NCBI GenBank assembly: GCA_020049805.1
Contig: JAGVLN010000008.1
Coordinates: 4,904 to 68,903, forward strand
Source: Rickettsiales bacterium
GTDB taxonomy: Bacteria > Pseudomonadota > Alphaproteobacteria > Rickettsiales > JABSSG01
Length of the DNA stretch: 64,000 bases
Reading direction: 5' to 3'
This document shows, piece by piece, positions 18,549-58,586 of this stretch. The notes under the pieces were generated by a model, which was not told where the DNA came from, did not search any database, and worked only from the letters and a program-made list of their open reading frames with translations. The position numbers were made by a program, and so were the translations under genes. Position 1 is the first letter of the stretch. Each line of letters begins with the position of its first letter.

Positions 18549-19355
18549 ATGAAAAAAATTTCTTCGTTTTTCGAAATAATATATTTGTCATTTTTTTCGG
18601 CAGAATTTTATCGGGATGTTTATAATAATTTACAAGGTAAAAAATTGAATTATTTACTCCGCTTAGTAGCTTTTGTTGCCCTAGTTATGGCGATAATTGA
18701 AAGTGCAAATATTTGGATTAATTTTAATCAATTCGATTCTACTAAAACTATTGATAATATACTTAATCAAGTACCTACAATGGTAATAAAAAATAAGGAG
18801 CTACAAATATTAAATAAAAATGTTGAAGGCCCAATTTTTGTACGTAATAGCGAAGGAAAAATATTAGTTATTATTGATGATCAAGCAAAAGACAATAAGT
18901 ATCAATCAGAGAATGCACCATTAGTTGTTATTAAAACAGGAATGTTTTTATCAGATCGAGATCAAATTAGATTTAGCTCTATGATGGATAAAGATGAGTT
19001 AATAGTTACGCATGAGGTCATTATTCAATATTGGCAAAAAACTTTAGAAATCTTTAAATTAATCCTACCTTTTATATTGTTTGTCATAACATTTTTAGAA
19101 CTAAGTATTGGCACAATATTTTATGCATTAATTTTTGCCGGAATAGTTTTATTAACACATAAAATTATGCAATATAAAAATATTTCTTTTGAGCCATTAT
19201 TTCGTTTAGCTATATTTGCAAGTTTTCCTTCTATAATAGCTATGATTCCTTTGTTTTTTATGCCTGCGTTAAGCCCAAGTTGGATTTATTTGGCCTACTT
19301 ATTTTTTGCTTACTATAATGCTCTATATGCTAATAAGAAAGGTTTAGAGGGATAA
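18549..19355 (+). CDS. DUF1189/YvdJ-like integral membrane protein
   Basis: 268 aa. The N-terminus (F..I..S.FS.EFY..V.....GK...YLL.L) and topology resemble DUF1189 as I recall it. Function unknown. Confidence 0.45.
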   Translation: MKKISSFFEIIYLSFFSAEFYRDVYNNLQGKKLNYLLRLVAFVALVMAIIESANIWINFNQFDSTKTIDNILNQVPTMVIKNKELQILNKNVEGPIFVRNSEGKILVIIDDQAKDNKYQSENAPLVVIKTGMFLSDRDQIRFSSMMDKDELIVTHEVIIQYWQKTLEIFKLILPFILFVITFLELSIGTIFYALIFAGIVLLTHKIMQYKNISFEPLFRLAIFASFPSIIAMIPLFFMPALSPSWIYLAYLFFAYYNALYANKKGLEG

Positions 19356-42235: not shown

Positions 42236-43144
42236 TTAAATTTTTATCCAATTTTCAATAGCTGCATCGAATAACGCTGAATTCTCAAAATGGGGCCAAT
42301 GGCTAGTATTTCCACAATCTATGATTGTGAAATTGGAAGGTTTAGGGTGGGCTTTCCATAATTCTAATGGCACACAATCATAATCTAATTTTCCGCCAAA
42401 AAGAATTACAGGAATGCTTATTTTATCTATATTTATAACTAGGTCATGGTTAGGTAAAAGCGTATCAAATAAATGAGCGCAGATTTTATCGTCAACCTCT
42501 ATATCTTTCCATAATTCTTCTAAAAACTGTCTGGATATATTAAAATCAGCCCAATATCTTGCAGAATTTGCTTCATAAGCATTTAATGAAACTTCTGATT
42601 CAATTGGTTTTTTAATTTTAAGGAAATTCTCTTTACGAATTTTATCATTATTTTTACGTTCTAAGGACGCGTGTTTTTCAAAATAATCATTTGCGTATTG
42701 AATTACATGGTTATTCCAGGCAGGAGGTGATCCTACCATAATAACTCCTTTTATTGCTGGATGTGATCTCTTAGCCGCTTCTAATGCAATAATCCCAAAA
42801 ACTGAATGAGCTAATAATATTAAATTTTTTAATCTTAATAACTCTATAACCCTGAATATATCATCAATAATTTTGTTTATTGTTAAATTATGTGGATTTT
42901 CAAGGCTATGGGTTTCAATCCAATATAAATCGCAAGAATATAGAGTAACCAATTCTTTGAATTTATCAGATAGAGTTCTTTGCATTAATGTACCAATTCC
43001 TATACAAAGGCAAGCTATTTCTTCACTGCCTTGAATAGTTATAGGGTATTCTTTATTATCTAGAGTTATATTAATTTTTTTTACTAGAGGCTCTTTAGAA
43101 TTAGTGTTAGGTTGCATAATAATACTTTGGTTAAAATTCGCCAT
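42236..43144 (-). CDS. alpha/beta-fold hydrolase
   Basis: 302 aa. Nucleophile elbow LLAHSVFG (G/A-H-S-x-G-like) and C-terminal ...GNTSHWPHFE supplying the catalytic His. Substrate unknown. Confidence 0.65.
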   Translation of the reverse strand: MANFNQSIIMQPNTNSKEPLVKKINITLDNKEYPITIQGSEEIACLCIGIGTLMQRTLSDKFKELVTLYSCDLYWIETHSLENPHNLTINKIIDDIFRVIELLRLKNLILLAHSVFGIIALEAAKRSHPAIKGVIMVGSPPAWNNHVIQYANDYFEKHASLERKNNDKIRKENFLKIKKPIESEVSLNAYEANSARYWADFNISRQFLEELWKDIEVDDKICAHLFDTLLPNHDLVINIDKISIPVILFGGKLDYDCVPLELWKAHPKPSNFTIIDCGNTSHWPHFENSALFDAAIENWIKI

Positions 43145-47020: not shown

Positions 47021-47126
47021 TTACTTTTCTCTGTCTTTTCTAATGATTCTTATTTATTTTCAATTATATTCTTAGAGTAGTAACTATATTTACATATATA
47101 AACATTATCTTAGAATTACGCAAGTC

Positions 47127-48170
47127 ATGATCGATATAATTAAAAAAATAAATAACCTGTTATCTAATGTTGAGATTAACAATCAAACTTTGGATTTAAT
47201 TAAATTAAAATATATTGCGGGTGTTAAAGCGAAGGATGGTGAGGTTGGAATTGTATTGAATGTAACCAAGGAAAACCATTTGCAAATTGAAGAAATACAA
47301 AAGGTAGTGACAAACTTAGTAAAAGATTTACCGCAAGTAAAAAAAGTAAATATAGTGTTAACTGGTGATCAAGAATATAAATTAGTTAAGCAGCCTATAG
47401 CGGTAACTAAACAAAAAATTATTTTACCTGGGGTAAAAAAAATTATTGCTGTTGCTTCAGGCAAAGGAGGAGTAGGTAAATCTACTACGGCAGTAAATTT
47501 AGCACTTGCTTTAGCACAGCAGGGATACAAGGTTGGTTTAGCTGATGCCGATATTTATGGTCCATCAATTCCTACGCTGTTAGGGATTAAACAAAAACCC
47601 GAATCTCAAGAGCAAAAGATAATTCCGATTGATAAATACGGAATAAAAACTATGTCCATAGGATACTTAATACCAGAAGCAGCAGCTCTTGCTTGGCGAG
47701 GGGCTATGGTAGTTAAGGCTTTGTATCAAGTATTACATGGCACTAGATGGGGAGATTTAGACTTTTTAATTATTGATATGCCTCCAGGAACTGGAGACAT
47801 TCATTTAAGTTTAGCGGAAAATTATAAAATTGATGGTATTGTAATTGTTTCTACTCCACAGAATGTAGCTTTAGCTGACGTTACAAGAGCAATAAGTATG
47901 TATAAAAAAGTCCAAATTCCAATTATTGGATGTGTTGAAAATATGAGCTACTTTCTGGATCCGGCAACTGGTAACAAAAGTTATATTTTTGGCCAGGAGG
48001 GGTTAAAAAAAATAGCTAAAGAGACGGATTTAGCTCTGCTTGCTGAAATCCCTTTAAATATAAAGATCCGTGAGCAAGGCGATTTAGGGCGGTCAGTTAT
48101 GGGAAATGAAGAATTAGCTAAAATATATCTTAATTTAGCAACACAAATTACAAAGGCAATTTATAGTTGA
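47127..48170 (+). CDS. apbC: Fe-S cluster carrier ATPase Mrp/ApbC/NBP35
   Basis: 347 aa. Deviant Walker A VASGKGGVGKST, DADIYGPS, DMPPGTGD and the CVENMS motif. Confidence 0.9.
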   Translation: MIDIIKKINNLLSNVEINNQTLDLIKLKYIAGVKAKDGEVGIVLNVTKENHLQIEEIQKVVTNLVKDLPQVKKVNIVLTGDQEYKLVKQPIAVTKQKIILPGVKKIIAVASGKGGVGKSTTAVNLALALAQQGYKVGLADADIYGPSIPTLLGIKQKPESQEQKIIPIDKYGIKTMSIGYLIPEAAALAWRGAMVVKALYQVLHGTRWGDLDFLIIDMPPGTGDIHLSLAENYKIDGIVIVSTPQNVALADVTRAISMYKKVQIPIIGCVENMSYFLDPATGNKSYIFGQEGLKKIAKETDLALLAEIPLNIKIREQGDLGRSVMGNEELAKIYLNLATQITKAIYS

Positions 48171-48240
48171 GGTTAATTATTGACACCTTAATTAGATACA
48201 TGTTATCAAAATATGAGACAACTTTTTTAATTGGAATTAA

Positions 48241-48942
48241 ATGACTCAAATTTTTTCTGATGCTAGTACAGCCCTTAAAGACATTCTACGTAATGATTTA
48301 ACAATTATGGCTGGAGGTTTTGGGTTATGCGGGGTGCCTGAAAATCTTATCCAAGCAATTTATGATTCTAAAGTTACCGGTTTAACTATTATCAGTAATA
48401 ATTGTGGTACTGATGATGAGGGGTTGGGTATATTATTAAAAAATCGCCAAATTAAGAAAATGATTGGCTCATATGTTGGTGAAAATAAAACTTTTGAGCA
48501 ACATGTTTTAAATGGCGAATTAGAATTAGAACTGAACCCTCAAGGTACGCTGGCTGAAAGAATTCGTGCAGGTGGTGCCGGCATTCCTGCTTTTTTCACT
48601 CCTACAGGTTATGGTACTATTGTTGCAGAAGGCAAGGAAGTGCGTGAATTTAATGGCAAAAAATATATTATGGAGCAAGCTTTATATGCAGATTTAGCGA
48701 TTGTTAAAGGTGATAAAGCAGATAAGGCTGGGAATATGATTTATAATAAAACTGCTAGAAATTTTAATCCAATGATGGCTGCGGCTGCTAAATTTACAGT
48801 AGCTGAAGTTGAGGAAATAGTTGAAACAGGAGAGCTCGATCCGAATTTTATTCATACTCCATGCATTTATGTTCATAGATTGCTTAAAGGTAAAGGCTAT
48901 CGTAAACCTATTGAAAAACTAACAACTAGACCAAGAATTTGA
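48241..48942 (+). CDS. scoA: succinyl-CoA:3-ketoacid CoA-transferase subunit A
   Basis: 233 aa. GGFGLCG.PE, the class I CoA-transferase A-subunit signature. Confidence 0.9.
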
Positions 48943-48949
48943 GGAAATT

Positions 48950-49582
48950 ATGGCTTGGACTCATGAGCAAATTTGTGCAATTGCTGCTAAACATGAATTG
49001 AAAAATGGTATGTATGTCAACCTCGGTATTGGCATACCCACTGAAGTTGCTAATCATGTACCCGCTGGAATTAAAGTATTGCTGCAAAGTGAAAATGGCA
49101 TGTTAGGTATGGGGCCTTTTCCATACGAAGGTGACCAAGATCCAGACTTAATTAATGCTGGTAAGCAAACTATTACTGAATTGCCCGAATCAAGTTATTT
49201 TAGTAGTGCTGATTCTTTTGCGATGATCAGAGGAGGGCATATTGATTTAACTATCCTAGGTGCTTTGCAGGTTTCGCAAAATGGCGATCTAGCTAATTGG
49301 ACAATACCAGGTAAAATGATGAAAGGTATGGGCGGAGCTATGGATTTAGTAGCTGGTGCTAAGCGAGTGGTAGTGATAATGGATCATGTTGCCAAAAATG
49401 GCGATGCTAAATTAGTTAAGAAATGTACCTTGCCTTTGACTGGAGTAAATGTAGTTAATAGGGTTATTACTAATTTGGCAATTTTTGATTTTATTGATAG
49501 TAAATTATGCTTAAAAGAACTAGCGCCAGAAGTAAGCCTCGAGCAACTTAAAAGCTGCACCGAGGCTGAATTTATTACTTAA
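48950..49582 (+). CDS. scoB: succinyl-CoA:3-ketoacid CoA-transferase subunit B
   Basis: 210 aa. LQSENG.LG (catalytic Glu) and GMGGAMDL. Confidence 0.9.
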   Translation: MAWTHEQICAIAAKHELKNGMYVNLGIGIPTEVANHVPAGIKVLLQSENGMLGMGPFPYEGDQDPDLINAGKQTITELPESSYFSSADSFAMIRGGHIDLTILGALQVSQNGDLANWTIPGKMMKGMGGAMDLVAGAKRVVVIMDHVAKNGDAKLVKKCTLPLTGVNVVNRVITNLAIFDFIDSKLCLKELAPEVSLEQLKSCTEAEFIT

Positions 49583-49591
49583 AATTTTTTA

Positions 49592-50740
49592 TTATCTTCC
49601 TAGCTTCTCTGCTTCTGATAATCTTCCTCGTCTTCTTGCATGTTGATCAGGTGCTTTTTTTGCAGCAGCTGCTGCAGCAGTTGCTAAAGACATTAAGGCA
49701 GTTGTGCCTCTAAGTACTCGGCCTCCTCCCCCAGGTTTTATATATCCTACCATCGGCTCGCCTCCAGCTCCAACCATAGGTACATGCTCTGCTCCACTTG
49801 GAGACTTAAATGATCCATTAGCTGTAGGTTGTAAACGACCTGGTGTTTTAGGAGGAATTCTTGGTAATGCACCAGCCGCTGTACGCATTGGGCTTAATTC
49901 TGCTTCTTCGCTTTCCCATGCAGAGTCTCTCATATTTCTTGCCACATCAGCAAACCCAACGCCTGCTCCTGATCTTCTTCTAGCTCCAATTCTACTTGCT
50001 ATTGAGCCTCCGGTTCCAGGTGTTGTACCGCTACCACCTCTTGCTGGCCTATCATCGCCATGACTACCATGACCTGAATGGACGCTGTCAGTAATTGATC
50101 TGGTAGGAGTACGTTCTCGTCCTCGACGATGTGTTTGTCCTAATTGCGCTTGTAATTGTGCTAATTGTGCTTGTAATTGTGCTACTTGGGGATTTGGTTG
50201 TTGCGGAAATCCATCATTCCTTCCAAAAATATTATGAGCAAAGTTAGTTATAGCATTACTGAACATATACACTGCTCCTACTAAAGCGGAAGTAATAATT
50301 CCAGGTAAACGGTTTGTAATGTATGGCATGTTGCTTTGGAGCATTTCAGTTGTAGCATTTTCCTCATAGTTTGTATGTAGCTCTTCTATTTCTTGTTGTT
50401 GCCCTGGGCTAATTGTACGAGCTGCTGAAGATATTATTAATAAACTTGTTGCTGTGACAGTAGAAGAAAGTAAAGTGCTATATATACTGCCGTTTCTTGA
50501 GGTCATGCTATGCCCATAAACAGCCAAAGAAGTAGCGGCGATCCATGGTAAAGCATCTATAATCATTAAACTTTGTGTAGTTGATAAACCAAGCGATGGA
50601 CCGTAGCTGAGAAGTGAAGCAGGATTAGAAAACGCTGCCCAACCTGCTGCTGCTGTTGTTCCTAAAAAAGCTGCTTGAGCTAGTACTTTAGTTATTGTCC
50701 CTATAGATAAATTTATAGGTAAATTTTGAATTCTTAGCAT
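49592..50740 (-). CDS. unknown polytopic membrane protein, paralog A: conserved N-terminal module, Gln-rich coiled coil and a long GC-rich Gly/Arg/Pro/Ala disordered tail
   Basis: 382 aa. Four hydrophobic segments lie in aa 1-165. AQLQAQLAQLQAQL is at aa 187-200. The tail, aa ~205-382, has RGRER, ARRRSG, GGGG and AAAAAAKK, and ends ARRRGRLSEAEKLGR. The N-terminal module is paralogous to 50784..51521. I recognise no family. Confidence 0.7.
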   Translation of the reverse strand: MLRIQNLPINLSIGTITKVLAQAAFLGTTAAAGWAAFSNPASLLSYGPSLGLSTTQSLMIIDALPWIAATSLAVYGHSMTSRNGSIYSTLLSSTVTATSLLIISSAARTISPGQQQEIEELHTNYEENATTEMLQSNMPYITNRLPGIITSALVGAVYMFSNAITNFAHNIFGRNDGFPQQPNPQVAQLQAQLAQLQAQLGQTHRRGRERTPTRSITDSVHSGHGSHGDDRPARGGSGTTPGTGGSIASRIGARRRSGAGVGFADVARNMRDSAWESEEAELSPMRTAAGALPRIPPKTPGRLQPTANGSFKSPSGAEHVPMVGAGGEPMVGYIKPGGGGRVLRGTTALMSLATAAAAAAKKAPDQHARRRGRLSEAEKLGR

Positions 50741-50750
50741 CTTTAAACCT
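50264..50750 (-). repeat. duplicated module, copy A (N-terminal ~160 codons plus the RBS of paralog A)
   Basis: Aligns with 51057..51531 at an offset of about 793 nt at the 3' ends and 781 nt at the 5' ends (a 4-codon indel). It includes a 54-nt perfectly identical run (50373..50426 = 51166..51219) and an identical aggtttaaagATG start context. Confidence 0.85.
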
Positions 50751-50783
50751 CAATTTTATTTAAATTCATTGTACTTACATTAA

Positions 50784-51521
50784 TTACCTGGAAGCGCCAG
50801 TTGCTATAGACGATCTTCTTCTTCCTGCAACTCTACCGGCTACTGTTCCTTCTGAGAGATTACTATTAGCAGGGGTCGGAGGTGATAGATCAGTAAGTCG
50901 TTGTTGTAATTCATTTGTGGTTGATTCTAGCGCTCTTACTCGTTCTAATGCTGCATTTCGTTCTTCCAGTAATCGAGTCGTGTCTCGTTCTAATTGTAAT
51001 CGTCTCTGATCTCTTCCTAAGAATCTATTAGCTAAGTTAATCAAACCATTACCGACCATATACACTGCTCCTAATAAAGCAGAAGTAATCATTCCAGGTA
51101 AATGGTTTGTAATATTTGGCATGTTGCTTTGGAGCATTTCAGCTGTAGCATTTTCCTGATAGTTGGTATGTAGCTCTTCTATTTCTTGTTGTTGCCCTGG
51201 GCTAATTGTACGAGCTGCTAAAAATAAAGTTGATATGCCGGCTGTTGCGATAAGAGAAGAAAGTAAAGTGCTAAACATGCTTCCATTTCTTGTAGTATTA
51301 CTATGGATATAAACTCCTAAAGAAGTAGCGGCGATCCAAGGTAAGGCATCTATAACAATTAAACTTTTTGTAAGTGATAAACCAAGGGATGTTGAGTAGC
51401 CTAAAATTGAAGCTGGGTTAAAATAAGCTGCTGCACCTATAGCTGCTATCGTTCCTATAATAGCTGCTTGGGTTAGTATTTTAGTACTTTTACCTACTGG
51501 TGAATTTTGGATAGTTAACAT
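50784..51521 (-). CDS. unknown polytopic membrane protein, paralog B: the same N-terminal module with an unrelated coiled-coil/Arg-rich tail
   Basis: 245 aa. It shares AARTISPGQQQEIEELHTNY exactly, and most of aa 1-155, with paralog A. The tail is RRLQLERDTTRLLEERNAALERVRALESTTNELQQRL...GRRRSSIATGASR. Confidence 0.7.
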   Translation of the reverse strand: MLTIQNSPVGKSTKILTQAAIIGTIAAIGAAAYFNPASILGYSTSLGLSLTKSLIVIDALPWIAATSLGVYIHSNTTRNGSMFSTLLSSLIATAGISTLFLAARTISPGQQQEIEELHTNYQENATAEMLQSNMPNITNHLPGMITSALLGAVYMVGNGLINLANRFLGRDQRRLQLERDTTRLLEERNAALERVRALESTTNELQQRLTDLSPPTPANSNLSEGTVAGRVAGRRRSSIATGASR

Positions 51522-51531
51522 CTTTAAACCT
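51057..51531 (-). repeat. duplicated module, copy B
   Basis: See copy A (50264..50750). Confidence 0.85.
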
Positions 51532-51666
51532 TATGTTTGTTGCATATGGATTAATTACCTAAAAATTAATTAATGTCAATAATAATATATAGAAATTAAT
51601 AAAATATATATAAATTAATAAAAGTTTGTAGAAATTAAATTAAACACTCAAATAATTAAAAATATG

Positions 51667-51694
51667 TTGACAAGTTTTAATAAGATCATAGTAT
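51667..51694 (+). promoter_or_regulatory. candidate sigma-70 promoter for the 51754 gene
   Basis: Consensus TTGACA (51667..51672), a 16-nt spacer, then TAGTAT (51689..51694). The -10 hexamer ends about 60 nt upstream of the ATG. Confidence 0.35.
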
Positions 51695-51753
51695 CTATGC
51701 ACAAACTAATAAAATTTTCAATTAGTAGTTATTTAACTTAATAAGGTTTTTCT

Positions 51754-53262
51754 ATGATAAACAAACAATTCTCTAGGTGTTTAACAATTGCATTATTAAC
51801 TTCTGCGCTTACTACTTCCATTACCTCTATGGCAGCAGAAAAATTTACTCCAAATACTAAAGAGCAAGGTAAAGCTGCTGATGCGCTGGCACTTAATTTT
51901 GGCGTTGCACAGGAGGAAAAAGGCTATCGCGATATGGTAAAGGCTGAGGAAAGTATTGTAAAAAATGAAATTGCTGCAACTCAAACTAGAGGTATATCAA
52001 CTTTAGAGAGGTTTAGCACATCACAGGTTAGAGTAGTTGAGAAACATTTTGGTCAGGAACTGGCGGCTATCAGAGAACAAATTCAAGGTCCTCTAAATAA
52101 TGGAGTAAAAGGTTCACTTATTAGTGAAGCTAGAGCTGCTGCTGACACAGCTGCTGCTGCAAATGTTGTAAAAGGAGAGCAAGAGTCAGCTGCTGATGTT
52201 GAAGTTGTGTCATCTCCTTTGCCAAGTACTCCTACTTCTATTCCTGAAGTAAACCCAACAAGCGGTGCTCAATCTTCAGCATCACCTGAAATATCTCCAA
52301 CTATACAAGCAGTATTAGTTGCTAGATCAGCAGAAGATTTACCTTCAACACCATCGCCTACCCCATCATCAAATGGTGGAAAACCAACAAGCGGTGCTCA
52401 ATCTTCAGCATCACCTGAAGCGTCGCCAAGCGTTCAGCCTACTTTTGGTGCAGATGGAGATACCAAGCCCACTTTTACACCAGATCAGCCGGGATTTACA
52501 AAATTAACTGATTATTTAGAAGGCAATGCTGAATTTGACTATAGCATATTTGCTGCAGTAAGCAAGAAAACATATTCTAATCTTAACGCACGGGTGCAGG
52601 ATTTAAGTGTCAAAGCAAATTCAACTCCATCTGATACATTGGATTTATCGGCGCACGAAAGAGCAGTTGATGGACTTGTGAGCCAAGCTGATAGCGATGT
52701 AGATAGCGCAGTATCAACAGCAGTGGAAGATGCGGCTGCCCAGCTTTTACAAAAAAATGTTAGTGATGCATTTATTCGAGTGCAAAAAGCATTTGAAGAA
52801 GCAGTTCGTAAAGCTGAGCAAGAAGAAAGTGATAAGCTAGATGAACTTGTACGTCAAAAAGAAAAAATGGAACAAGCAGCAGGTGAAGCTGCTAAAAACT
52901 TTGAAGCATTTAGAGAAAAAGTTAAAGCAGCAAAAGCTAAAATTAGATCAGAGAGAAAGAAAGGTAAAGAATATTCATCTGCTGAGCAAGGGAAGAAATC
53001 TAGTGAAAAGGTAAAAACTGTATACACTGAAGAGAAATCAAAACTTGATGCTGAAGAAAAAGCTTTACTTGAATTAATTCAAAGAAGCTCAAAGGCGACA
53101 CCAGTTTCTGTATTGCGCGCTGCTTCTTCTAAGTTCGCTACTTTCAGTATGCCACAAGGGTCTAGATTATCAGCTGTTGGTGCGAGAGCTACAGAAAGAT
53201 TTACACCTAGTAAAACTACAAGTGGTTTATTCGGTTTGGCTAATAAAGGCGTGAATAGTTAA
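51754..53262 (+). CDS. secreted/surface protein of unknown family with Ser/Pro/Thr-rich tandem repeats and a Lys/Glu-rich coiled coil
   Basis: 502 aa. Sec-type signal peptide (CLTIALLTSALTTSITSMA/AEK) and a helical N-domain. A degenerate 43-aa repeat has the core PTSGAQSSASPE. The K/E-rich helical region is aa ~340-440. No TPS-domain NPNL/NPNG motifs seen. Confidence 0.75.
   Translation: MINKQFSRCLTIALLTSALTTSITSMAAEKFTPNTKEQGKAADALALNFGVAQEEKGYRDMVKAEESIVKNEIAATQTRGISTLERFSTSQVRVVEKHFGQELAAIREQIQGPLNNGVKGSLISEARAAADTAAAANVVKGEQESAADVEVVSSPLPSTPTSIPEVNPTSGAQSSASPEISPTIQAVLVARSAEDLPSTPSPTPSSNGGKPTSGAQSSASPEASPSVQPTFGADGDTKPTFTPDQPGFTKLTDYLEGNAEFDYSIFAAVSKKTYSNLNARVQDLSVKANSTPSDTLDLSAHERAVDGLVSQADSDVDSAVSTAVEDAAAQLLQKNVSDAFIRVQKAFEEAVRKAEQEESDKLDELVRQKEKMEQAAGEAAKNFEAFREKVKAAKAKIRSERKKGKEYSSAEQGKKSSEKVKTVYTEEKSKLDAEEKALLELIQRSSKATPVSVLRAASSKFATFSMPQGSRLSAVGARATERFTPSKTTSGLFGLANKGVNS
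52255..52419 (+). repeat. in-frame tandem repeat (129-nt period) with a perfect 36-nt core
   Basis: ccaacaagcggtgctcaatcttcagcatcacctgaa occurs identically at 52255..52290 and 52384..52419. The flanks are degenerate (LPSTPTSIPEVN- versus LPSTPSPTPSSNGGK-). Confidence 0.9.
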
Positions 53263-53274
53263 AATTTTAATATT

Positions 53275-53312
53275 AAGATAATTATGGCTATACAAATAGT
53301 CATAATTATCTT
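53275..53312 (+). terminator. long AT-rich hairpin 13 nt after the 51754..53262 stop (terminator or processing/attenuation element)
   Basis: aagataattatg (53275..53286) pairs perfectly with cataattatctt (53301..53312). The stem extends by g-t, ctat/atag to about 17 bp with an acaa loop. There is no immediate U-tract (atgttaataaaaaa follows). Confidence 0.4.
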
Positions 53313-53348
53313 ATGTTAATAAAAAATTGTAATTGAGTTTTGGAGACA

Positions 53349-53600
53349 ATGATAAAAAAACAAATCTTTCTTACTATATTAATTATACTAGTGACACAAT
53401 CTCAGTTAGCTTTAGCTCAACAAGATGAAGCTGCTTCAGAGTTAAATCAACTTAAGCCTAACGATCTCATGGTACCAGACATTGGTATACCTGAGGAAGA
53501 AAAGGAATCAGAAGAGGAAGAAAAATTATTGCTTCAAAGTTATGATTTTGAAAGTAATAAATCAGTTAAATTATTCAAATTAAATCAAATCATATTGTAG
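53349..53600 (+). pseudogene. truncated duplicate of the tpsB 5' end (83-aa ORF: signal peptide, acidic linker and the first POTRA strand)
   Basis: MIKKQIFLTILIILVTQSQLALAQQDEAASELNQLKP...SVKLFKLNQIIL* aligns with MIKKTTFLTIVTILIICSQLALAQQNETASELNQFKP...AVKPFKLNEIIV of the next gene. The upstream ttgagtttt box is also duplicated (53333 and 53601). It keeps its own GGAGA SD, so it could be expressed as a small secreted peptide. Confidence 0.55.
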
Positions 53601-53621
53601 TTGAGTTTTAGTAGAGGGACG

Positions 53622-55403
53622 ATGATAAAAAAAACAACCTTTTTAACTATAGTAACTATATTAATAATATGTAGCCAATTAGCCTTGGCACAACAAAATG
53701 AAACTGCTTCGGAATTAAATCAATTTAAGCCTGATCATACAATACCACAAGAGGCGATAAAATCCATAGAATCAAAAGAAACTTCTGTGCCAATTAAAGT
53801 ATTTCCGCCAAGCAAAAAAGAGGAACTGTCTATCCAAAATTATGATATTGAAGGTGAAAAAGCAGTCAAACCATTTAAATTAAATGAAATAATTGTGGAA
53901 AATGGCCATACTTTTACAGATAGTAGATTTGTGCCTTTATATAAAGATATGATTGGGCAGACAGTTAATTTTAATGACCTAAATAAAATCGCTAATAAAA
54001 TATCTGAATTTTATATCGAACAAGGTTTTCTATTAACCCATGCTTATGTTGATTATAAACAAAATTTTAAAGCTGGGGCTGCTAGAATAAAAGTTATTAA
54101 TGGTGGTATTAGGCAAGTGCATGTTTTAGGTGCTGATCAAGATAATAATTTTATTAAAGAATACCAAAAGAAAATCATTAGTTCTAAACCAGTAACTAAA
54201 AAGTTAGTGCAAAGATATGTTAAATTGATCGATCAAATGCCTGGTTACGAAGTTCAATTGGTGAAAATTCTTCCTGTTCCAGATCATATGCGTACAAGCT
54301 TTGAGGAATATGCTGATTTAGTAATAGTTGTAAAAAAGATTGATAAAGAAGTTAAGCTAAAAGTCAGCAATGACATCAATAAACATTATGGTGATTATAA
54401 AGCCAATGCATCCTTCTCTATGTTCTCACCATTTAAAAAAGGTGAGGAAATTAAGGTAGTATATCTTACATCTAATAAAACAAATGCTCTAAAAAATGCT
54501 GGTGTAATTTATACTCAACCTCTTAATACAGAAGGCACAGCACTTAGAACAATACTCTCTTATGCTGAGAGCAATCAAAGCGCGGTGTCATCTAATAATT
54601 TACCATCACAAAAAAATAATACGGATTATTATGTTGATTTAGAATTATCTCATCCGTTTATCCTAACCAATAAATTTAGCCTTAAAGGCGCTATTGGGTT
54701 AAATTATGACCGAGATACTCAATATAATAATGTGGGTCTGTATAGAAGAAACACCAATTTCGAATTAGATGTTTCTACTACTATGCAATATAAGGATGCT
54801 ATAAAAGGTATAAACTATTTAGTACTTGCTTATGGTCGTGGATTACCTAATAGTAGTTATAAAATTTATCAAACAGCTGCTAATGCATATCAAGTTGAAG
54901 GAAATTATAATAAACTTAACCTAGATTATTATAGGTTACAGCCACTTGTACAAAATCTTTATTTTACAGCTTTAGCTACTGGGCAATATTCTAATAAACC
55001 ATTGCCAAGTGGGCAAAAAATCACCTTTGGTGGGCAAAGTTTAGTTAGAGGATATAAATCAGAATTATTAGCTGCTTCTAAAGGTGCTGGTTTAGCACTT
55101 GAGTTAAATTATTTTATTAATTTAAATCAGCCTTATTTTAAACGTGCTGAATTATATGGATTTTATGATCAAGCAAAAATTATGACTATGGATAATGAGA
55201 CAGCTCTTAACCAAACTTCTACTAAATATTTAGCTTCTACAGGTTATGGTGTAAAAACTAATATAGCTGGTAATTTAAAAGCAGGTTTGGAAATTGCCTA
55301 TCCATTGAAATCTTTTAAGACATATCAAAATTATGCCCCTATTAATGTTCATAAGAATAAAGCACAGACTACTGTCTTCTTAGAACACTCAGTTGAATGG
55401 TAG
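53622..55403 (+). CDS. ShlB/FhaC/HecB-type two-partner-secretion transporter (TpsB; Omp85 superfamily)
   Basis: Signal peptide ending ALA/QQ. POTRA-type block FKLNEIIVENGHTFTDSRF..LYKDMIGQTVNFNDLNKIANKISEFYIEQGFLLTHAYV...G.ARIKVINGGI. Conserved loop-6 VRGY (GGQSLVRGYKS). Beta-barrel pattern with a C-terminal aromatic residue (...EHSVEW). I place the start at ATG 53622 (SD agaggg), not the TTG at 53601. Confidence 0.75.
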   Translation: MIKKTTFLTIVTILIICSQLALAQQNETASELNQFKPDHTIPQEAIKSIESKETSVPIKVFPPSKKEELSIQNYDIEGEKAVKPFKLNEIIVENGHTFTDSRFVPLYKDMIGQTVNFNDLNKIANKISEFYIEQGFLLTHAYVDYKQNFKAGAARIKVINGGIRQVHVLGADQDNNFIKEYQKKIISSKPVTKKLVQRYVKLIDQMPGYEVQLVKILPVPDHMRTSFEEYADLVIVVKKIDKEVKLKVSNDINKHYGDYKANASFSMFSPFKKGEEIKVVYLTSNKTNALKNAGVIYTQPLNTEGTALRTILSYAESNQSAVSSNNLPSQKNNTDYYVDLELSHPFILTNKFSLKGAIGLNYDRDTQYNNVGLYRRNTNFELDVSTTMQYKDAIKGINYLVLAYGRGLPNSSYKIYQTAANAYQVEGNYNKLNLDYYRLQPLVQNLYFTALATGQYSNKPLPSGQKITFGGQSLVRGYKSELLAASKGAGLALELNYFINLNQPYFKRAELYGFYDQAKIMTMDNETALNQTSTKYLASTGYGVKTNIAGNLKAGLEIAYPLKSFKTYQNYAPINVHKNKAQTTVFLEHSVEW

Positions 55404-55535
55404 AAGATTGAACTGTGCTGCAACTTATACAGTGGTCAGAATAGTGGTTTATAATTCTTTTGTTTAGTACTTATAATTTTTTTCATCGTGAAGCTGGTGT
55501 ATAATTAAGTTATAACTATAATTAATAGTGAGCTT

Positions 55536-57302
55536 ATGCATCATACAGTTGATATTCACCGCTTATCTCATAATTCATTAAAAATATTTGAGAAGTACCA
55601 GATTTTATTAAGCAAAATTTTTAAAAACGACTCATTCCAAAATCAAGAATCTCTTTTTGAACCTATTGAAATAAACAAAGTTTTTATTGATGTATTTTCT
55701 AGTTTGTATTCTCATCCTAAGAAGATGCTAGAGCTACAAGCTCAATATGTAAAAGACTACATAGAGCTATTAAATTATAGTTTAAAAAAATTTTCTGGAG
55801 AAAACCCAGAACCTTTATATCAACCCACGCATAAAGATAAAAGATTCATAGATAAAGCATGGGACGATAATTTTTTCTTCGATTTAGTTAAACAAACTTA
55901 TTTAATGAATACTCAGTGGTTAGAAACCTTGTTAAAGGATGCAAAAGTAGAAAACAAAACTAAATTAAGAGCTAATTTTTTTATTAAACAAATGATGAAT
56001 GCACTAGCTCCTTCTAATTTTATTTCTACTAATCCCATAGTACTTAAAGAAACTATAGAAACTCATGGAGAAAATTTACTTAAAGGTCTAAATAATTTCA
56101 TTGAAGATTTAGAAAATAGTAAACAGATATTTGATATTAAACGTATCGATAATAAGGCATTTAAAATTGGTAAAAATATTGCTAACACTAAAGGACAGGT
56201 CATTTATGAAAATGAGTTAATGCAGTTAATTCATTATACACCTACTACTGACCAGACCTACTCTATTCCTTTGCTTATAGTGCCGCCATGGATAAATAAA
56301 TATTATATACTAGATCTGACAGAAAAGGACTCATTTGTTAAATGGATTCTGGACCAGGGTTTTAGTGTTTTCTTAATTTCATGGGTGAATCCTGATTCTA
56401 GTTTAGCTAATAAGTCATTTGATGATTATATGTTGCAAGGGCCTATTGAAGCCATTAATTTTATAAAAAAAATAACAGGTACTAAGCATATAAATTTATT
56501 AGGATATTGTTTAGGAGGTACTCTTAGCTGTATGACAGAGGCCTATCTAAATAGTAAGGGTGATGATACCATAAAATCAGCTACGTTGCTTACTACGTTA
56601 CTTGATTTTAAAGATGCAGGTGACATTTTAGTTTTTATTGACGATGCGAAGTTAAAACGTATTGAAGAAAAAATGTCTGAAGATGGCTATTATGATGGTG
56701 ACTATGTGAGTGCCACTTTTAGCTTGCTTAGGTCGAATGACATGATTTGGTCATTTTTTGTCAATAATTATTTACTTGGAAAAGAACCACTGCCATTTGA
56801 TATATTATATTGGAATGCTGATTCTACAAGGCTACCTGCTAAAATGCATAGTTTTTATCTGAAAAATATGTATTTAGAAAATAACTTAGCTAAACCTAAC
56901 AAGTTAAAAATAGCAGGTACCCCTATTAATTTAGCTAATGTAAAAATACCGTGCTACTTTCTTACGGCTATCGATGACCATATAGCACCATGGGAAGCAG
57001 TATATCAAGCACATAAATTAATTAGTGGGCCTATAAAATTTACACTATCAGGTTCTGGGCATGTAGGAGGAGTAGTAAATCCTCCAAGTAAAAATAAATA
57101 TTGTTATTGGACCAATAAAGCTAATGATCTAACTGGTTCGAAATGGTTAAGTCATGCTATCAAGCATGAGGGTTCATGGTGGCCAGATTGGGCTAATTGG
57201 TTGAAGGATTACTCTGGAAAGTTAGGTAAGCCTATATCTGCAACTGATATGAAAAAATATTTTATTGAGAATGCTCCAGGAAGATACGTTCTAGTAAAAT
57301 AG
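55536..57302 (+). CDS. phaC: class I poly(3-hydroxyalkanoate) synthase
   Basis: 588 aa. Lipase-box GYCLGG with catalytic Cys, PPWINKYYILDL, and the conserved C-terminal His region (GSGHVGGVVNPP). Confidence 0.92.
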   Translation: MHHTVDIHRLSHNSLKIFEKYQILLSKIFKNDSFQNQESLFEPIEINKVFIDVFSSLYSHPKKMLELQAQYVKDYIELLNYSLKKFSGENPEPLYQPTHKDKRFIDKAWDDNFFFDLVKQTYLMNTQWLETLLKDAKVENKTKLRANFFIKQMMNALAPSNFISTNPIVLKETIETHGENLLKGLNNFIEDLENSKQIFDIKRIDNKAFKIGKNIANTKGQVIYENELMQLIHYTPTTDQTYSIPLLIVPPWINKYYILDLTEKDSFVKWILDQGFSVFLISWVNPDSSLANKSFDDYMLQGPIEAINFIKKITGTKHINLLGYCLGGTLSCMTEAYLNSKGDDTIKSATLLTTLLDFKDAGDILVFIDDAKLKRIEEKMSEDGYYDGDYVSATFSLLRSNDMIWSFFVNNYLLGKEPLPFDILYWNADSTRLPAKMHSFYLKNMYLENNLAKPNKLKIAGTPINLANVKIPCYFLTAIDDHIAPWEAVYQAHKLISGPIKFTLSGSGHVGGVVNPPSKNKYCYWTNKANDLTGSKWLSHAIKHEGSWWPDWANWLKDYSGKLGKPISATDMKKYFIENAPGRYVLVK

Positions 57303-57303
57303 A

Positions 57304-58524
57304 TTATTTAGAATATTGCTTTAAATAATTTATTAATTCTTCGCTAGTAGATGAAAAGTTAGAGCTTACCCAGTGATCTTCTGCTCTTTGTAATAATTTT
57401 TTGATTATTGGTCCTGGTTTTACATTTAATTTTTCTATTATATTTTGCCCAGTTATTGGTAAAGGAGGAAAAGTTTGGCTTTGTAGCTCAGTAATTGAGC
57501 TATATGCTGTGTTATTTATTTCATTTTTGTTAGCTAAATAAAATATAAGGCTATCCACAACTTGGTCTTTGCCATATTTATAAGCTAAGTTCAATATTGG
57601 ATATTCATCAAATAAAGAGCTTATTTTTTGTAAGTTTAACAAATATGTTTTTTGTTTATTAGATAGTTTAAATTCTTGGCTCAAAATATTAATTGTTTGA
57701 GGTGTGTCCTTAATTAAAGCAAAAAGCTTAATTAAATAATTAAGATCATAGCCTAATAATTTTTCTATATCAGATAGAGCTTGTAATACTTTAGAAAAAT
57801 TTGGTCTAATCTCATTAATCAATGCCTGTAAGACATTTACTTCATACATCAGATTGAGTGTTTTTAAACTATTTTGGGCTTGCAGTATTTTAAATAATTC
57901 TTTGCTTTTTCTTTCTCCAGATAAATTATGTATTTTGGTAATATTATTTTGGCAAGCATCTAAAGAAGATTGATCTAATTGTGAATCGCCATAATAAGCT
58001 AAGAATCTAAAATATCTTAATATCCTTAAATGGTCTTCTAATATTCGTTGAGTTGGATCACCGATGAATTTGATTATTCCATGCTTAAGGTCTTTAAGGC
58101 CTGTAAAATAATCGTATAATTTATTTTGAACAGGGCAGTAACTCATGGCATTTATTGTAAAGTCCCTTCTGTGGGCATCTTTTTTCCAGTCATTAGTAAA
58201 TTTAACAACCGCTCTTCTGCCATCAGTACTTACATCTTCGCGTAAAGAAGTGATTTCATATTGATGGTTATAAATAATTGCAGTAATTGTGCCATGCTCG
58301 ATACCTAAGGGAAGGTTTTTAATACGCTTTTTGGTTAAAGCTAGCTGAATCTGTTCTGGTAATAGTGTGGTAGCGATATCTATATCAACAAAATTTCTTT
58401 CGAGGAGTGTATCTCTAACGCATCCTCCAATGAATCTATTTTCTCCTCCCAGTGCGCTTAAAGCTGAGAAAATAACATCTGCATGAGGAAAATTAGTTAA
58501 ATTATCTAAATTACTTAGTTTCAT
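57304..58524 (-). CDS. cca: CCA-adding tRNA nucleotidyltransferase / poly(A) polymerase family protein
   Basis: 406 aa. GGCVRD.LL, DIDIAT and RRDFTINA motifs of class II nucleotidyltransferases. Confidence 0.85.
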   Translation of the reverse strand: MKLSNLDNLTNFPHADVIFSALSALGGENRFIGGCVRDTLLERNFVDIDIATTLLPEQIQLALTKKRIKNLPLGIEHGTITAIIYNHQYEITSLREDVSTDGRRAVVKFTNDWKKDAHRRDFTINAMSYCPVQNKLYDYFTGLKDLKHGIIKFIGDPTQRILEDHLRILRYFRFLAYYGDSQLDQSSLDACQNNITKIHNLSGERKSKELFKILQAQNSLKTLNLMYEVNVLQALINEIRPNFSKVLQALSDIEKLLGYDLNYLIKLFALIKDTPQTINILSQEFKLSNKQKTYLLNLQKISSLFDEYPILNLAYKYGKDQVVDSLIFYLANKNEINNTAYSSITELQSQTFPPLPITGQNIIEKLNVKPGPIIKKLLQRAEDHWVSSNFSSTSEELINYLKQYSK

Positions 58525-58586
58525 AAGCTACAGTATTGTTTTAATAAAAATACTATAACTTATGAAATAAGAAAATAATTTAATGA

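What the first reader, a model, noticed from the sequence alone, without database searches (positions are those of the whole stretch)
49592..51531. Tandem paralogs: one conserved 4-TM N-terminal module fused to two unrelated tails, with a 54-nt perfectly identical core
The two ORFs 49592..50740 and 50784..51521 share about 155-160 N-terminal residues, including an identical 20-aa run AARTISPGQQQEIEELHTNY and an identical start context aggtttaaagATG.
- A 54-nt stretch is base-for-base identical (50373..50426 = 51166..51219), while the surrounding codons have diverged. This mosaic suggests gene conversion or strong constraint on that segment.
- Downstream of the module the proteins are unrelated. 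One has a Gln-rich zipper plus a ~180-aa Gly/Arg/Pro/Ala tail; the other has a classic heptad coiled coil.
- Both tails are net-basic at the extreme C-terminus (…ARRRGRLSEAEKLGR and …GRRRSSIATGASR). That is the kind of Arg-rich C-terminus used as a signal by VirB/VirD4-type T4SS substrates.
- Both tails carry an RRRS motif (ARRRSG and GRRRSS), which matches the basophilic R-R-x-S eukaryotic kinase consensus.
A constant anchor with a variable business end is typical of effector or inclusion-membrane protein families.
Basis: partly seen in the sequence, partly recalled or inferred. Interest (0 to 1): 0.7.

Follow-up and report, generated by a model that had tools for sequence, protein, structure and literature searches.

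The report
Duplicated orphan membrane-protein gene pair
Two neighbouring genes in an uncultured intracellular bacterium are diverged copies of one gene found nowhere else; they encode weakly hydrophobic, arginine-tailed proteins that may be delivered into host membranes, but their function is still unproven.

Summary
The core observation is real. Two minus-strand genes, geneB (50784..51521, 245 aa) and geneA (49592..50740, 382 aa), share a ~175-aa N-terminal module at 66% identity. They also share an identical SD/start 13-mer and a 54-nt identical run.

Synonymous divergence falls from 0.49 to 0.09 across a ~165-nt tract (loop plus helix 4), which indicates gene conversion.

The tails are not unrelated. 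Both start with a coiled coil next to the last helix and share a homologous GxxAxRxxxRRRS motif, also seen at DNA level. GeneA carries an extra ~92-125 aa.

The family is an orphan: nothing matched in 5.8 billion proteins, an exhaustive HMM search of 1.84 billion representatives, Pfam, NCBIfam, PHROGs, PADLOC or PDB sequences.

The host genome is a 33% GC alphaproteobacterium with two ATP/ADP translocases, so it is obligately intracellular. Close strains occur in drinking-water, wastewater and groundwater metagenomes.

The four helices are almost charge-free but far less hydrophobic than every inner-membrane protein tested in the window. Both proteins are extreme Arg-over-Lys outliers. GeneA is the divergence hotspot between near-identical strains, while geneB is almost invariant.

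Best reading, by inference only: translocated transmembrane-effector-like proteins. A resident bacterial membrane role is nearly as likely.

The parts
50784..51521 (-). geneB, upstream paralog, 245 aa
   Evidence: ORF with an AAGG Shine-Dalgarno 8 nt before the ATG. Nearly invariant in strains X1, X2 and X11.
49592..50740 (-). geneA, downstream paralog, 382 aa, 43 nt after geneB, probably co-transcribed
   Evidence: ORF with a GAGG Shine-Dalgarno. No terminator-like site lies in the spacer. Fragments with in-frame variation occur in X1, X3, X6 and X11.
50216..50740 (-). geneA N-terminal module (aa 1-175). Charge-free helices at about aa 19-37 (50630-50686), 50-76 (50513-50593), 86-107 (50420-50485) and 146-170 (50231-50305). 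Acidic loop at aa 108-145 (50306-50419).
   Evidence: Hydropathy and charge-free runs. Loop net charge is -4.
51009..51521 (-). geneB N-terminal module (aa 1-171), same four helices and acidic loop
   Evidence: 66% aa identity to the geneA module. Hydropathy.
50373..50426 (-). 54-nt run identical to 51166..51219 (geneA copy)
   Evidence: Exact identity verified. Permutation P = 4e-4.
51166..51219 (-). 54-nt run identical to 50373..50426 (geneB copy)
50261..50426 (-). Gene-conversion tract in geneA (codons 106-160: acidic loop plus start of helix 4). The partner tract is 51054..51219 in geneB.
   Evidence: dS is 0.09 here against 0.49 upstream and 0.34 downstream. Third-position Fisher P = 2.5e-4. 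RNA folding z-scores are +1.4 and +1.0.
51054..51219 (-). Gene-conversion tract in geneB (codons 102-156)
50738..50750 (-). Duplicated SD/start 13-mer AGGTTTAAAGATG (geneA). The second copy is at 51519..51531 (geneB).
   Evidence: These are the only two exact matches in the window. Homology continues about 20-40 nt upstream (D10 and D13).
50135..50188 (-). 21-nt x 2.6 tandem repeat encoding the geneA Gln/Leu heptad zipper (aa ~185-202)
   Evidence: TRF. About 10% diverged in X1 and X11.
50886..51011 (-). geneB coiled coil next to helix 4 (aa ~171-212)
   Evidence: This is the only part of the AF2 model with pLDDT 63-83, and it forms one continuous helix with helix 4.
49971..50009 (-). Homologous tail motif GxxAxRxxxRRRS in geneA. 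The partner is 50812..50850 in geneB.
   Evidence: 77% identity over 39 nt (D11). Local DNA alignment codon-shuffle P = 0.003. Protein shuffle P = 0.011.
50812..50850 (-). Homologous tail motif in geneB
49595..49954 (-). geneA-specific Gly/Ala/Arg/Pro-rich C-terminal extension (aa 263-382)
   Evidence: No counterpart in geneB apart from a possible S[IL]AT match. GC1 and GC2 are ~0.61 but GC3 is 0.18. No homologues.
49583..49867 (-). Segment of geneA (last ~91 codons) that is hypervariable between strains
   Evidence: In X1 the contig carries 270 nt here that do not align at >=80%, a length difference of 15 nt. The visible 13 codons stay in frame. X3 has a window-like allele with an in-frame 3-nt deletion at 49856.
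51522..51753 (.). AT-rich divergent intergenic region between geneB and the orphan 502-aa gene, containing a 19-nt x 3.1 tandem repeat (51578..51638)
   Evidence: Promoter-like sites were not more frequent than chance.

Best explanation
Shown:
- One lineage-specific gene was duplicated in tandem, as a whole, in an obligately intracellular alphaproteobacterium. The duplicated unit comprised the SD/start context, four charge-free helices, an acidic 40-aa loop, a coiled coil next to the last helix and an Arg-rich tail with an RRRS motif.
- The copies then diverged, with module dN/dS ~0.55.
- GeneA carries a ~92-125-aa Gly/Ala/Arg/Pro-rich addition and is a divergence hotspot between strains. GeneB is almost invariant.
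- A ~165-nt tract encoding the loop and the start of helix 4 was later homogenised by gene conversion.

Inferred:
- The proteins are membrane-inserting and dimerise through the coiled coil, possibly as A-B heterodimers that share the homogenised loop and helix 4.
- By the positive-inside rule the topology is N-in/C-in, with the acidic loop on the far side and the Arg-rich disordered tails on the cytosolic side.
- The hydrophobic density of the helices is far below that of every resident inner-membrane protein tested in the same window, and lies in the range described for secreted transmembrane substrates.
- The most likely mechanism is therefore that they escape SRP/Sec insertion in the bacterium, are exported by a type IV-like system recognising the basic Arg-rich C-terminus, and insert into a host membrane with the tails facing the host cytosol.

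The stated confidence applies to this functional reading. The evolutionary anatomy is about 0.9.
For: Paralogy and anatomy.

Gene conversion.

The genes are real:
- Long ORFs in a 33% GC genome.
- SD sequences.
- dN below dS.
- In-frame indels and an open frame in other strains.
- GC3 is native.

Orphan status.

Intracellular host genome: two TLC ATP/ADP translocases and a Sel1 protein.

Membrane-like but weakly hydrophobic:
- 4-5 charge-free runs of >=19 aa, as in the polytopic proteins of the window; 32 of 49 ORFs have 0-1 such runs.
- Minimum simple-sum dG(12-17 aa) is +0.21 (A) and -0.33 (B), against -3.2 to -7.1 for 12 inner-membrane proteins of the window.
- Secreted T3SS/T4BSS transmembrane substrates are reported at -1.5 to +0.5, and SRP substrates near -2 (PMC6110835).

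Basic Arg-rich C-termini:
- Net charge of the last 30 aa.
- R/(R+K) is 0.85 and 0.80 against a median of 0.27.
- T4ASS signals are often positively charged C-termini, and N-in/C-in topology predominates among T4SS transmembrane effectors (PMC12981334).

Fast evolution of geneA:
- 5-10% diverged, and >20% in the last 285 nt, in strains otherwise 99.5-100% identical.
- 8 nonsynonymous to 8 synonymous changes, against 1 to 9 in adjacent scoB within the same diverged tract.
Against:
- Four helices and a 40-aa far-side loop are atypical. Most known T4SS transmembrane effectors have 1-2 segments and loops under 30 aa, and larger periplasmic domains hinder translocation (PMC12981334).
- GeneB's near-invariance looks like a housekeeping constraint.
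- The hydrophobicity scale was a position-independent approximation recalled from memory, not the full dG predictor.
- The structure predictions were uninformative (pLDDT 48 and 40).
- No expression data were found.
Confidence: 0.4

Rival explanations
1. Resident bacterial membrane proteins. The four helices insert into the symbiont's own inner membrane, possibly after translation through YidC. The acidic loop is periplasmic. The Arg-rich coiled-coil tails act inside the bacterial cytoplasm, for example as a scaffold or as a tether for nucleic acid or the envelope. The protein is lineage-specific, with no role in the host.
For: - The positive-inside pattern fits N-in/C-in in the bacterial membrane: basic N-terminus, one Arg in the loop between helices 2 and 3, a loop of net charge -4, and basic tails.
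- Charge-free runs resemble those of the polytopic proteins of the window.
- GeneB is nearly invariant between strains.
- The chromosomal context is housekeeping, with no secretion genes nearby.
- The 4-helix, 40-aa-loop layout is unlike typical translocated transmembrane effectors (PMC12981334).
Against: - Hydrophobic density is 3-7 kcal/mol weaker than in all 12 inner-membrane proteins of the same window.
- GeneA's tail is hypervariable between near-identical strains.
- The extreme Arg-over-Lys bias, maintained against AT pressure, is unexplained by this model.
Confidence: 0.3
2. Proteins associated with PHB granules or storage bodies, working like PhaF, PhaM or lipid-droplet tethers. The weakly hydrophobic helices sit on the granule surface, the zipper oligomerises, and the basic tail binds the nucleoid.
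For: - The pair is flanked by PHB-related genes: scoA/scoB directly downstream and class I PHA synthase phaC 4.8 kb away.
- The order 'hydrophobic N-terminus, leucine zipper, basic tail' recalls PhaF (my own knowledge of that family).
- GeneA contains one AAAAAAKKAP stretch.
Against: - No phasin or PHA-granule Pfam or NCBIfam model matches, even at E <= 1.
- The helices are uncharged rather than amphipathic.
- The tails are Arg-rich, not Lys/Ala/Pro repeats.
- A secreted-looking orphan protein and a TpsB outer-membrane transporter lie between the pair and phaC.
Confidence: 0.07
3. Sub-claim rival: the 54-nt identity and the ~165-nt high-identity tract reflect selection on the nucleotide sequence itself, such as an embedded RNA element or regulatory site, or simply strong protein constraint. 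On this view there was no gene conversion.
For: - The 20 aa encoded by the core are identical, so protein constraint certainly exists.
- Variants that make geneA resemble geneB in other strains can equally be retained ancestral states.
Against: - Protein constraint does not remove synonymous differences. dS falls five-fold, and third-position differences are 4/55 inside against 37/116 outside.
- Inside the tract the few differences are mostly nonsynonymous (7 against 3). That pattern suggests recent homogenisation followed by new change.
- There is no RNA-folding signal.
Confidence: 0.1
4. Decaying pseudogenes or spurious ORFs with no function.
For: There are no homologues anywhere, no expression evidence, and the structure predictions have low confidence.
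Against: - ORFs of 382 and 245 codons in a 33% GC genome, each with an SD sequence.
- dN is below dS.
- Length changes in other strains are in frame, at 3 nt and 15 nt.
- GeneB is almost invariant.
- GC-rich first and second codon positions are maintained while GC3 stays at the genome norm.
Confidence: 0.03

Closest known systems
Transmembrane effectors of type III/IV secretion systems (e.g. Salmonella SseF/SseG, EPEC Tir, Legionella and Coxiella TMD effectors), as characterised in PMC6110835 and PMC12981334
   Same: - Intermediate hydrophobic density that should evade SRP.
- Predicted N-in/C-in orientation.
- Long cytosolic C-terminal tail with a positively charged end.
- Lineage-restricted.
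- Found in an intracellular bacterium.
   Different: - No sequence or domain similarity to any of them.
- Four hydrophobic helices and a 40-aa loop, instead of the usual 1-2 segments with short loops.
- No secretion system or chaperone gene seen nearby.
- Translocation is untested.
Chlamydial inclusion-membrane (Inc) proteins
   Same: A hydrophobic N-terminal membrane anchor is followed by coiled-coil or disordered tails that would face the host cytosol. The family expands by tandem duplication and evolves fast. These are general features of Incs from my own knowledge.
   Different: - The defining bilobed hydrophobic domain, two adjacent helices within ~40-60 aa, is absent.
- The organism is an alphaproteobacterium, not a chlamydia.
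- No Inc Pfam model matches.
- Whether the host cell forms a vacuole around this bacterium is unknown.
PhaF/PhaM-type PHB-granule-to-nucleoid tethers
   Same: The order 'surface-binding N-terminus, leucine zipper, basic C-terminal tail' is shared. PHB genes lie close by on the chromosome.
   Different: - No phasin domain.
- The helices are uncharged rather than amphipathic.
- The tails are Arg-rich, not Lys/Ala/Pro repeats.
Tandem paralog arrays kept partly identical by gene conversion in intracellular Alphaproteobacteria (e.g. Anaplasma msp2/p44, Rickettsiales virB2/virB6 duplicates; my own knowledge)
   Same: Adjacent paralogs show a mosaic of homogenised and diverged segments.
   Different: - There are only two copies, and no cassette or expression-site organisation.
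- The proteins are alpha-helical and not outer-membrane beta-barrels.
- No TrbC/VirB2 or TrbL/VirB6 Pfam match.

Membership tests
Any curated protein family (Pfam-A, NCBIfam, PHROGs, PADLOC, PDB sequences) | Significant profile match above the family threshold | tested here: not met
   The best hits are far below their cut-offs: DUF7398 at E = 0.025 (14.7 bits against a cut-off of 27), for geneA only; PDB 6bfi at E = 0.095; one PHROG at E = 0.043.
Any uncharacterised protein family in public genomes and metagenomes | At least one homologue outside this locus | tested here: not met
   Only the two paralogs were found among 5.8 billion clustered proteins and in an exhaustive HMM search of 1.84 billion representatives. 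Scans of genome, metagenome, viral and plasmid collections were negative. Only near-identical strains appear in SRA runs.
Chlamydial Inc proteins | Bilobed hydrophobic domain (two adjacent TM helices within ~40-60 aa, short hairpin loop) | tested here: not met
   Four separate hydrophobic helices are spread over ~150 aa, with loops of about 12, 10 and 40 aa.
Chlamydial Inc proteins | Type III secretion and localisation to the inclusion membrane | not testable with these tools
   No T3SS genes lie in the window. The rest of the genome and any localisation data are unavailable.
T4SS transmembrane effectors (operational class, PMC12981334) | Positively charged C-terminal signal region (T4ASS type) | tested here: met
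   Net charge of the last 30 aa is +5 (A) and +4 (B). Both proteins are Arg-dominated.
T4SS transmembrane effectors (operational class, PMC12981334) | Moderate TMS hydrophobicity outside the SRP-recognition range | tested here: met
   Minimum simple-sum dG(12-17 aa) is +0.21 and -0.33, against -3.2 to -7.1 for 12 inner-membrane proteins of the window. The scale used is approximate.
T4SS transmembrane effectors (operational class, PMC12981334) | Simple topology: one or two TMS, with extramembranous loops mostly under 30 aa | tested here: not met
   There are four helices and a 40-aa acidic loop between helices 3 and 4.
T4SS transmembrane effectors (operational class, PMC12981334) | A T4SS with a coupling protein in the same genome, and demonstrated translocation | not testable with these tools
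   Only 64 kb of a 73.6-kb contig is available, and it contains no vir, rvh, dot or icm genes.
Phasins / PhaF / PhaM | Phasin or PHA-granule-binding domain | tested here: not met
   No phasin family matches at E <= 1 in Pfam or at E <= 0.1 in NCBIfam.
Phasins / PhaF / PhaM | Lys/Ala/Pro-rich histone-H1-like DNA-binding tail | tested here: not met
   R/(R+K) is 0.80-0.85, and there is a single AAAAAAKKAP stretch with no repeats.
Phasins / PhaF / PhaM | Genomic linkage to pha genes | tested here: inconclusive
   scoAB is adjacent and phaC lies 4.8 kb away, but a secreted-looking orphan gene and tpsB lie in between.
VirB2/TrbC pilins and VirB6/TrbL (tandemly duplicated in Rickettsiales) | Match to the TrbC or TrbL/VirB6 profile | tested here: not met
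   No such Pfam hit at E <= 1.
Phage holins | Small (about 60-150 aa) membrane protein with a basic C-tail, next to an endolysin or other phage genes | tested here: not met
   The proteins are 245 and 382 aa. There is no significant PHROG match and no phage genes in the neighbourhood.

The most novel reading that the evidence does not exclude
A previously unseen family of multi-pass transmembrane effectors, Inc-like in function, in a non-chlamydial alphaproteobacterial symbiont of water-system protists. The family would work as a pair. GeneB is an invariant partner. GeneA is a partner whose Arg-rich tail, facing the host, exists as sharply different alleles. Gene conversion keeps the shared loop and helix-4 interface identical so that the two can still heterodimerise.
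Probability: 0.25. Interest if true: 0.65.

Novelty: new variant of a known kind. Interest (0 to 1): 0.4.

Why it matters
If the pair is translocated, it would be a new transmembrane-effector family, unrelated in sequence to known ones, from a poorly known group of intracellular Alphaproteobacteria that is widespread in drinking water, wastewater and groundwater.

It would also be a compact natural example of two things. One is gene conversion preserving a single interface while the rest of two paralogs diverges. The other is hydrophobicity tuned below the bacterium's own membrane-insertion range.

If the pair is instead a resident membrane protein, it is an ordinary lineage-specific orphan. 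The main lesson is then methodological: 'unrelated tails' can be diverged homologues, and a basic C-terminus alone does not identify an effector.

Tried and rejected
- **Homology searches.** All were negative beyond the two paralogs:
  - the full geneA protein and the tail alone;
  - an exhaustive profile search;
  - Pfam, NCBIfam, PHROGs, PADLOC and PDB sequences;
  - GTDB genomes, JGI metagenomes by peptide patterns and by a degenerate IDALPWIAAT pattern, IMG/VR and plasmids.
- **Weak hits judged to be chance.** These were DUF7398 (E = 0.025, geneA only), VIN1 (6bfi) and phrog_20061.
- **Structure.** Both AlphaFold2 runs used 2-sequence alignments and gave pLDDT 47.8 and 39.8. I did not run fold searches because the matches would be meaningless. 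Only secondary structure and the geneB coiled coil were used.
- **Recent horizontal transfer as the cause of the GC-rich tail.** Rejected: GC3 is 0.16-0.19, the genome norm.
- **RNA structure as the cause of the identical core.** Rejected: z-scores are +1.4 and +1.0.
- **Promoter and terminator scans.** Counts were no higher than in shuffled sequence.
- **Further module copies.** None in the window by tblastn. No extra paralog contigs at >=80% identity in runs X1, X2 and X3, though those assemblies are shallow.
- **Positional orthologue in the syntenic relative L078.** None. A single unrelated gene sits between pnp and hflK there.
- **Expression.** No usable RNA run was found.
- **Variants in other strains that match geneB's state.** I first read these as proof of ongoing conversion, then downgraded them. 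Retained ancestral states explain them equally well.
- **Other identities.** Holin, phasin, VirB2/VirB6 and TpsA were considered and rejected; see the membership tests.
Full report
**1. What is in the sequence**

The two ORFs lie on the minus strand. GeneB (50784..51521, 245 aa) is upstream. GeneA (49592..50740, 382 aa) follows after a 43-nt spacer. Each ATG has a Shine-Dalgarno sequence 8 nt upstream.

- BLASTP between the two proteins gives E = 1e-69.
- The N-terminal ~175 aa are 66% identical, with one 4-aa indel.
- The run AARTISPGQQQEIEELHTNY is identical in both.
- The 54-nt stretch 50373..50426 equals 51166..51219 exactly and is the longest shared run.
- The 13-mer AGGTTTAAAGATG occurs exactly only at the two starts. 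Homology continues 20-40 nt upstream of both starts (D10 and D13). The duplicated unit therefore included the translation-initiation region.
- The 10-mer that ends geneB (TTAATTACCT on the plus strand, which includes its stop codon) recurs just upstream of geneB at 51551-51560. This may mark the duplication junction.

**2. The mosaic is best explained by gene conversion**

Nei-Gojobori estimates:

| Codons | dS | dN |
|---|---|---|
| 1-105 | 0.49 | 0.26 |
| 106-160 | 0.09 | 0.056 |
| 161-175 | 0.34 | 0.42 |

- Third-position differences are 4/55 inside the tract and 37/116 outside it (Fisher P = 2.5e-4).
- A 54-nt identical run has P = 4e-4 under permutation of the differences.
- No permutation out of 5000 produced a 165-nt window with as few as 10 differences.
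- Protein constraint alone cannot remove synonymous differences.
- RNA folding of either tract is no better than shuffled sequence (z = +1.4 and +1.0).
- Inside the tract the few differences are mostly nonsynonymous (7 against 3). That is what recent homogenisation followed by new change would look like.
- Some geneA variants in other strains match the geneB state. Retained ancestral states explain these equally well, so I do not count them as proof.

**3. The tails are diverged homologues, not unrelated sequences**

- Both tails begin with a helix continuous with helix 4. In geneB it is a heptad coiled coil, the only region with moderate AF2 confidence. In geneA it is a Gln/Leu zipper encoded by a 21-nt x 2.6 tandem repeat.
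- Both then carry G-x-[IV]-A-x-R-[IV]-x-x-RRRS at a colinear, in-frame position.
  - Protein shuffle P = 0.011.
  - DNA identity is 77% over 39 nt (D11).
  - Codon-shuffle P = 0.003.
- An in-frame 13/14-nt match links geneB's SSIATG to geneA's MSLATA (aa 350-354). This suggests geneB's tail equals geneA's tail minus ~92 codons.
- The event was therefore a whole-gene duplication, and the 'two RRRS motifs' are one inherited motif.

**4. The genes are real and native**

- The ORFs are long for a 33% GC genome, and dN is below dS.
- Length differences in other strains are in frame. There is a 3-nt deletion in X3, and a 15-nt difference in X1 where the visible flanking codons remain open.
- The tails are GC-rich (47-48% against ~33%) only because of first and second codon positions (~0.6).
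- GC3 is 0.16-0.19, the same as in neighbouring housekeeping genes. This is not recent horizontal transfer. It reflects selection for Gly/Ala/Arg/Pro against AT pressure.
- R/(R+K) is 0.85 (B) and 0.80 (A). The median of the 49 ORFs is 0.27 and the next-highest value is 0.50.
- Neither protein contains cysteine.

**5. Organism and distribution**

- The window is a housekeeping chromosomal region of an alphaproteobacterium. Its PNPase is at most 62-64% identical to any species representative, including Rickettsiales endosymbionts and Holosporales-like MAGs.
- It encodes two tandem TLC ATP/ADP translocases and a Sel1-repeat protein. These are hallmarks of an obligately intracellular lifestyle.
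- Near-identical strains occur at low depth in drinking-water, food-production, wastewater and groundwater metagenomes, and both genes are present there.
- Relative to L078, which keeps truB-pnp-(one gene)-hflK-hflC-degP, the window has 11.5 kb inserted at that point.
- The neighbouring 502-aa secreted-looking protein is also an orphan.

**6. The family is an orphan**

No homologue was found in any of these searches:

- 5.8 billion clustered proteins.
- An exhaustive HMM search of 1.84 billion representatives.
- Pfam, NCBIfam, PHROGs, PADLOC and PDB sequences.
- GTDB genomes, JGI metagenomes, IMG/VR and plasmids.
- The geneA tail searched alone.

AF2 models were of low confidence (pLDDT 48 and 40), so I ran no fold search.

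**7. Physical character of the module**

- Residues 1-106 contain only five charged residues. One of them is a conserved mid-helix Asp in IIDALPW.
- Each protein has 4-5 charge-free runs of at least 19 aa, like the polytopic membrane proteins of the window. By contrast, 32 of 49 ORFs have 0-1 such runs.
- Hydrophobicity is nevertheless marginal. KD-19 peaks are 1.3-1.8, against up to 2.4-3.5 in bona fide membrane proteins.
- Minimum simple-sum dG over 12-17 aa is +0.21 (A) and -0.33 (B). All 12 inner-membrane proteins tested in the same window lie between -3.2 and -7.1. The scale was recalled from memory and is position-independent, so it is approximate.
- Published work places SRP substrates near -2 kcal/mol. 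Type III and type IVB secreted transmembrane substrates lie between -1.5 and +0.5, an 'intermediate hydrophobicity niche' (PMC6110835).
- The charge pattern predicts N-in/C-in topology, with the 40-aa loop (net charge -4) on the far side and the basic tails on the cytosolic side.

**8. Population pattern**

- Strain X1 is 99.5-100% identical to the window over most of 42-62 kb. Examples are 0/551, 0/460, 0/796, 0/455 and 5/1076 differences.
- A tract from about 49252 to about 50981 is diverged instead. This looks like an imported allele.
  - The 3' half of scoB is ~4% diverged, and 9 of the 10 listed changes are synonymous.
  - GeneA is 5% diverged in helix 3 and the loop, 10% in the zipper, and cannot be aligned at >=80% over its last 285 nt. 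Its listed changes are 8 nonsynonymous to 8 synonymous.
  - GeneB is ~0.8% diverged.
- X6 and X11 show the same contrast. X3 carries a window-like geneA tail.
- GeneA's C-terminal tail therefore exists as sharply different alleles, while geneB is almost fixed.

**9. Interpretation**

Shown:

- Whole-gene tandem duplication of an orphan gene.
- Partial homogenisation by gene conversion.
- A native origin, with strong selection on amino-acid composition.
- Unusual intermediate hydrophobicity.
- Asymmetric evolutionary rates between the two copies.

Inferred, at about 0.4: the proteins are transmembrane-effector-like. On this reading they escape insertion into the bacterial membrane and are exported via the basic Arg-rich C-terminus. 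Positively charged C-termini are typical T4ASS signals (PMC12981334). They would then insert into a host membrane with the tails facing the host cytosol.

Against this reading:

- No secretion system is visible in the window.
- Four helices and a 40-aa loop are atypical for known T4SS transmembrane effectors.
- GeneB's invariance looks like a housekeeping constraint.

Alternatives:

- A resident inner-membrane role is almost as likely (0.3).
- A role as a PHB-granule tether is suggested only by the flanking scoAB and phaC genes and by the order 'zipper then basic tail'. It fails the domain and composition tests (0.07).
- Pseudogenes or spurious ORFs are unlikely (0.03).
- The kinase-consensus reading of RRRS is pattern matching on a short, inherited motif in an Arg-rich tail, and cannot be assessed here.

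**10. Verdict**

The description 'unrelated tails' is wrong. The effector idea remains a reasonable but untested hypothesis, with new circumstantial support and some counter-indications.

This is a new, orphan protein family of a familiar general kind: lineage-specific, tandemly duplicated, membrane-associated proteins of an intracellular bacterium. Interest is moderate.

Noticed in passing
window 19344..20828 and 20969..22483 (-); 12673..13830 (-): Two tandem TLC ATP/ADP translocase genes (Pfam E = 1e-158 and 6e-169) and a protein with eight Sel1 repeats. Together they point to an obligately intracellular, energy-parasitic lifestyle.
   Followed up: partly
window 51754..53262 (+): A 502-aa protein transcribed divergently from geneB. 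It has a signal-peptide-like N-terminus, a Ser/Thr/Pro-rich internal 129-nt repeat (52251-52300 and 52380-52429, 90% identical) and a Lys-rich coiled-coil C-terminus. It too is an orphan, with only a self hit among 5.8 billion proteins.
   Followed up: partly
window 53340..53600 (+) and 53601..55403 (+): An 86-aa ORF is a tandem partial duplicate of the 5' end of the adjacent ShlB/FhaC-type TpsB transporter gene (repeats D2 at 77% and D5 at 74%). No TPS-domain TpsA partner was recognised nearby.
   Followed up: no
window 51578..51638: A 19-nt x 3.1 tandem repeat (AATAAAATATATAGAAATT) lies in the AT-rich divergent promoter region between geneB and the 502-aa gene. It could be a regulator-binding array.
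   Followed up: no
window 50780..50789 and 51551..51560: The 10-mer TTAATTACCT, which contains geneB's last codon and its stop, recurs about 30 nt upstream of geneB's start. It may be the duplication junction, a microhomology, or the remnant of a lost third copy (D13).
   Followed up: no
window ~49252..~50981: In strain X1 this tract is diverged, while the surrounding 20 kb is 99.5-100% identical. The tract covers the 3' half of scoB, geneA and the geneB tail. It looks like a recombination import of a foreign allele, and the scoB changes are 9/10 synonymous.
   Followed up: partly
window 47021..58586 compared with L078 3661..5123: A Holosporales-like MAG (Alphaproteobacteria bacterium 16-39-46) keeps truB-pnp-(one gene)-hflK-hflC-degP. 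The window has 11.5 kb at that point, carrying mrp, scoAB, geneA, geneB, the 502-aa gene, tpsB, phaC and cca. This is therefore a variable region.
   Followed up: partly
window 42236..43144 (-): A 302-aa ORF with no Pfam match at E <= 1e-5, next to a Porin_4 gene (40730..42133). It may be another lineage-specific protein.
   Followed up: no
window 49592..49582 junction: geneA and scoB converge with only 9 nt between their stop codons, and no terminator-like hairpin lies between them.
   Followed up: no
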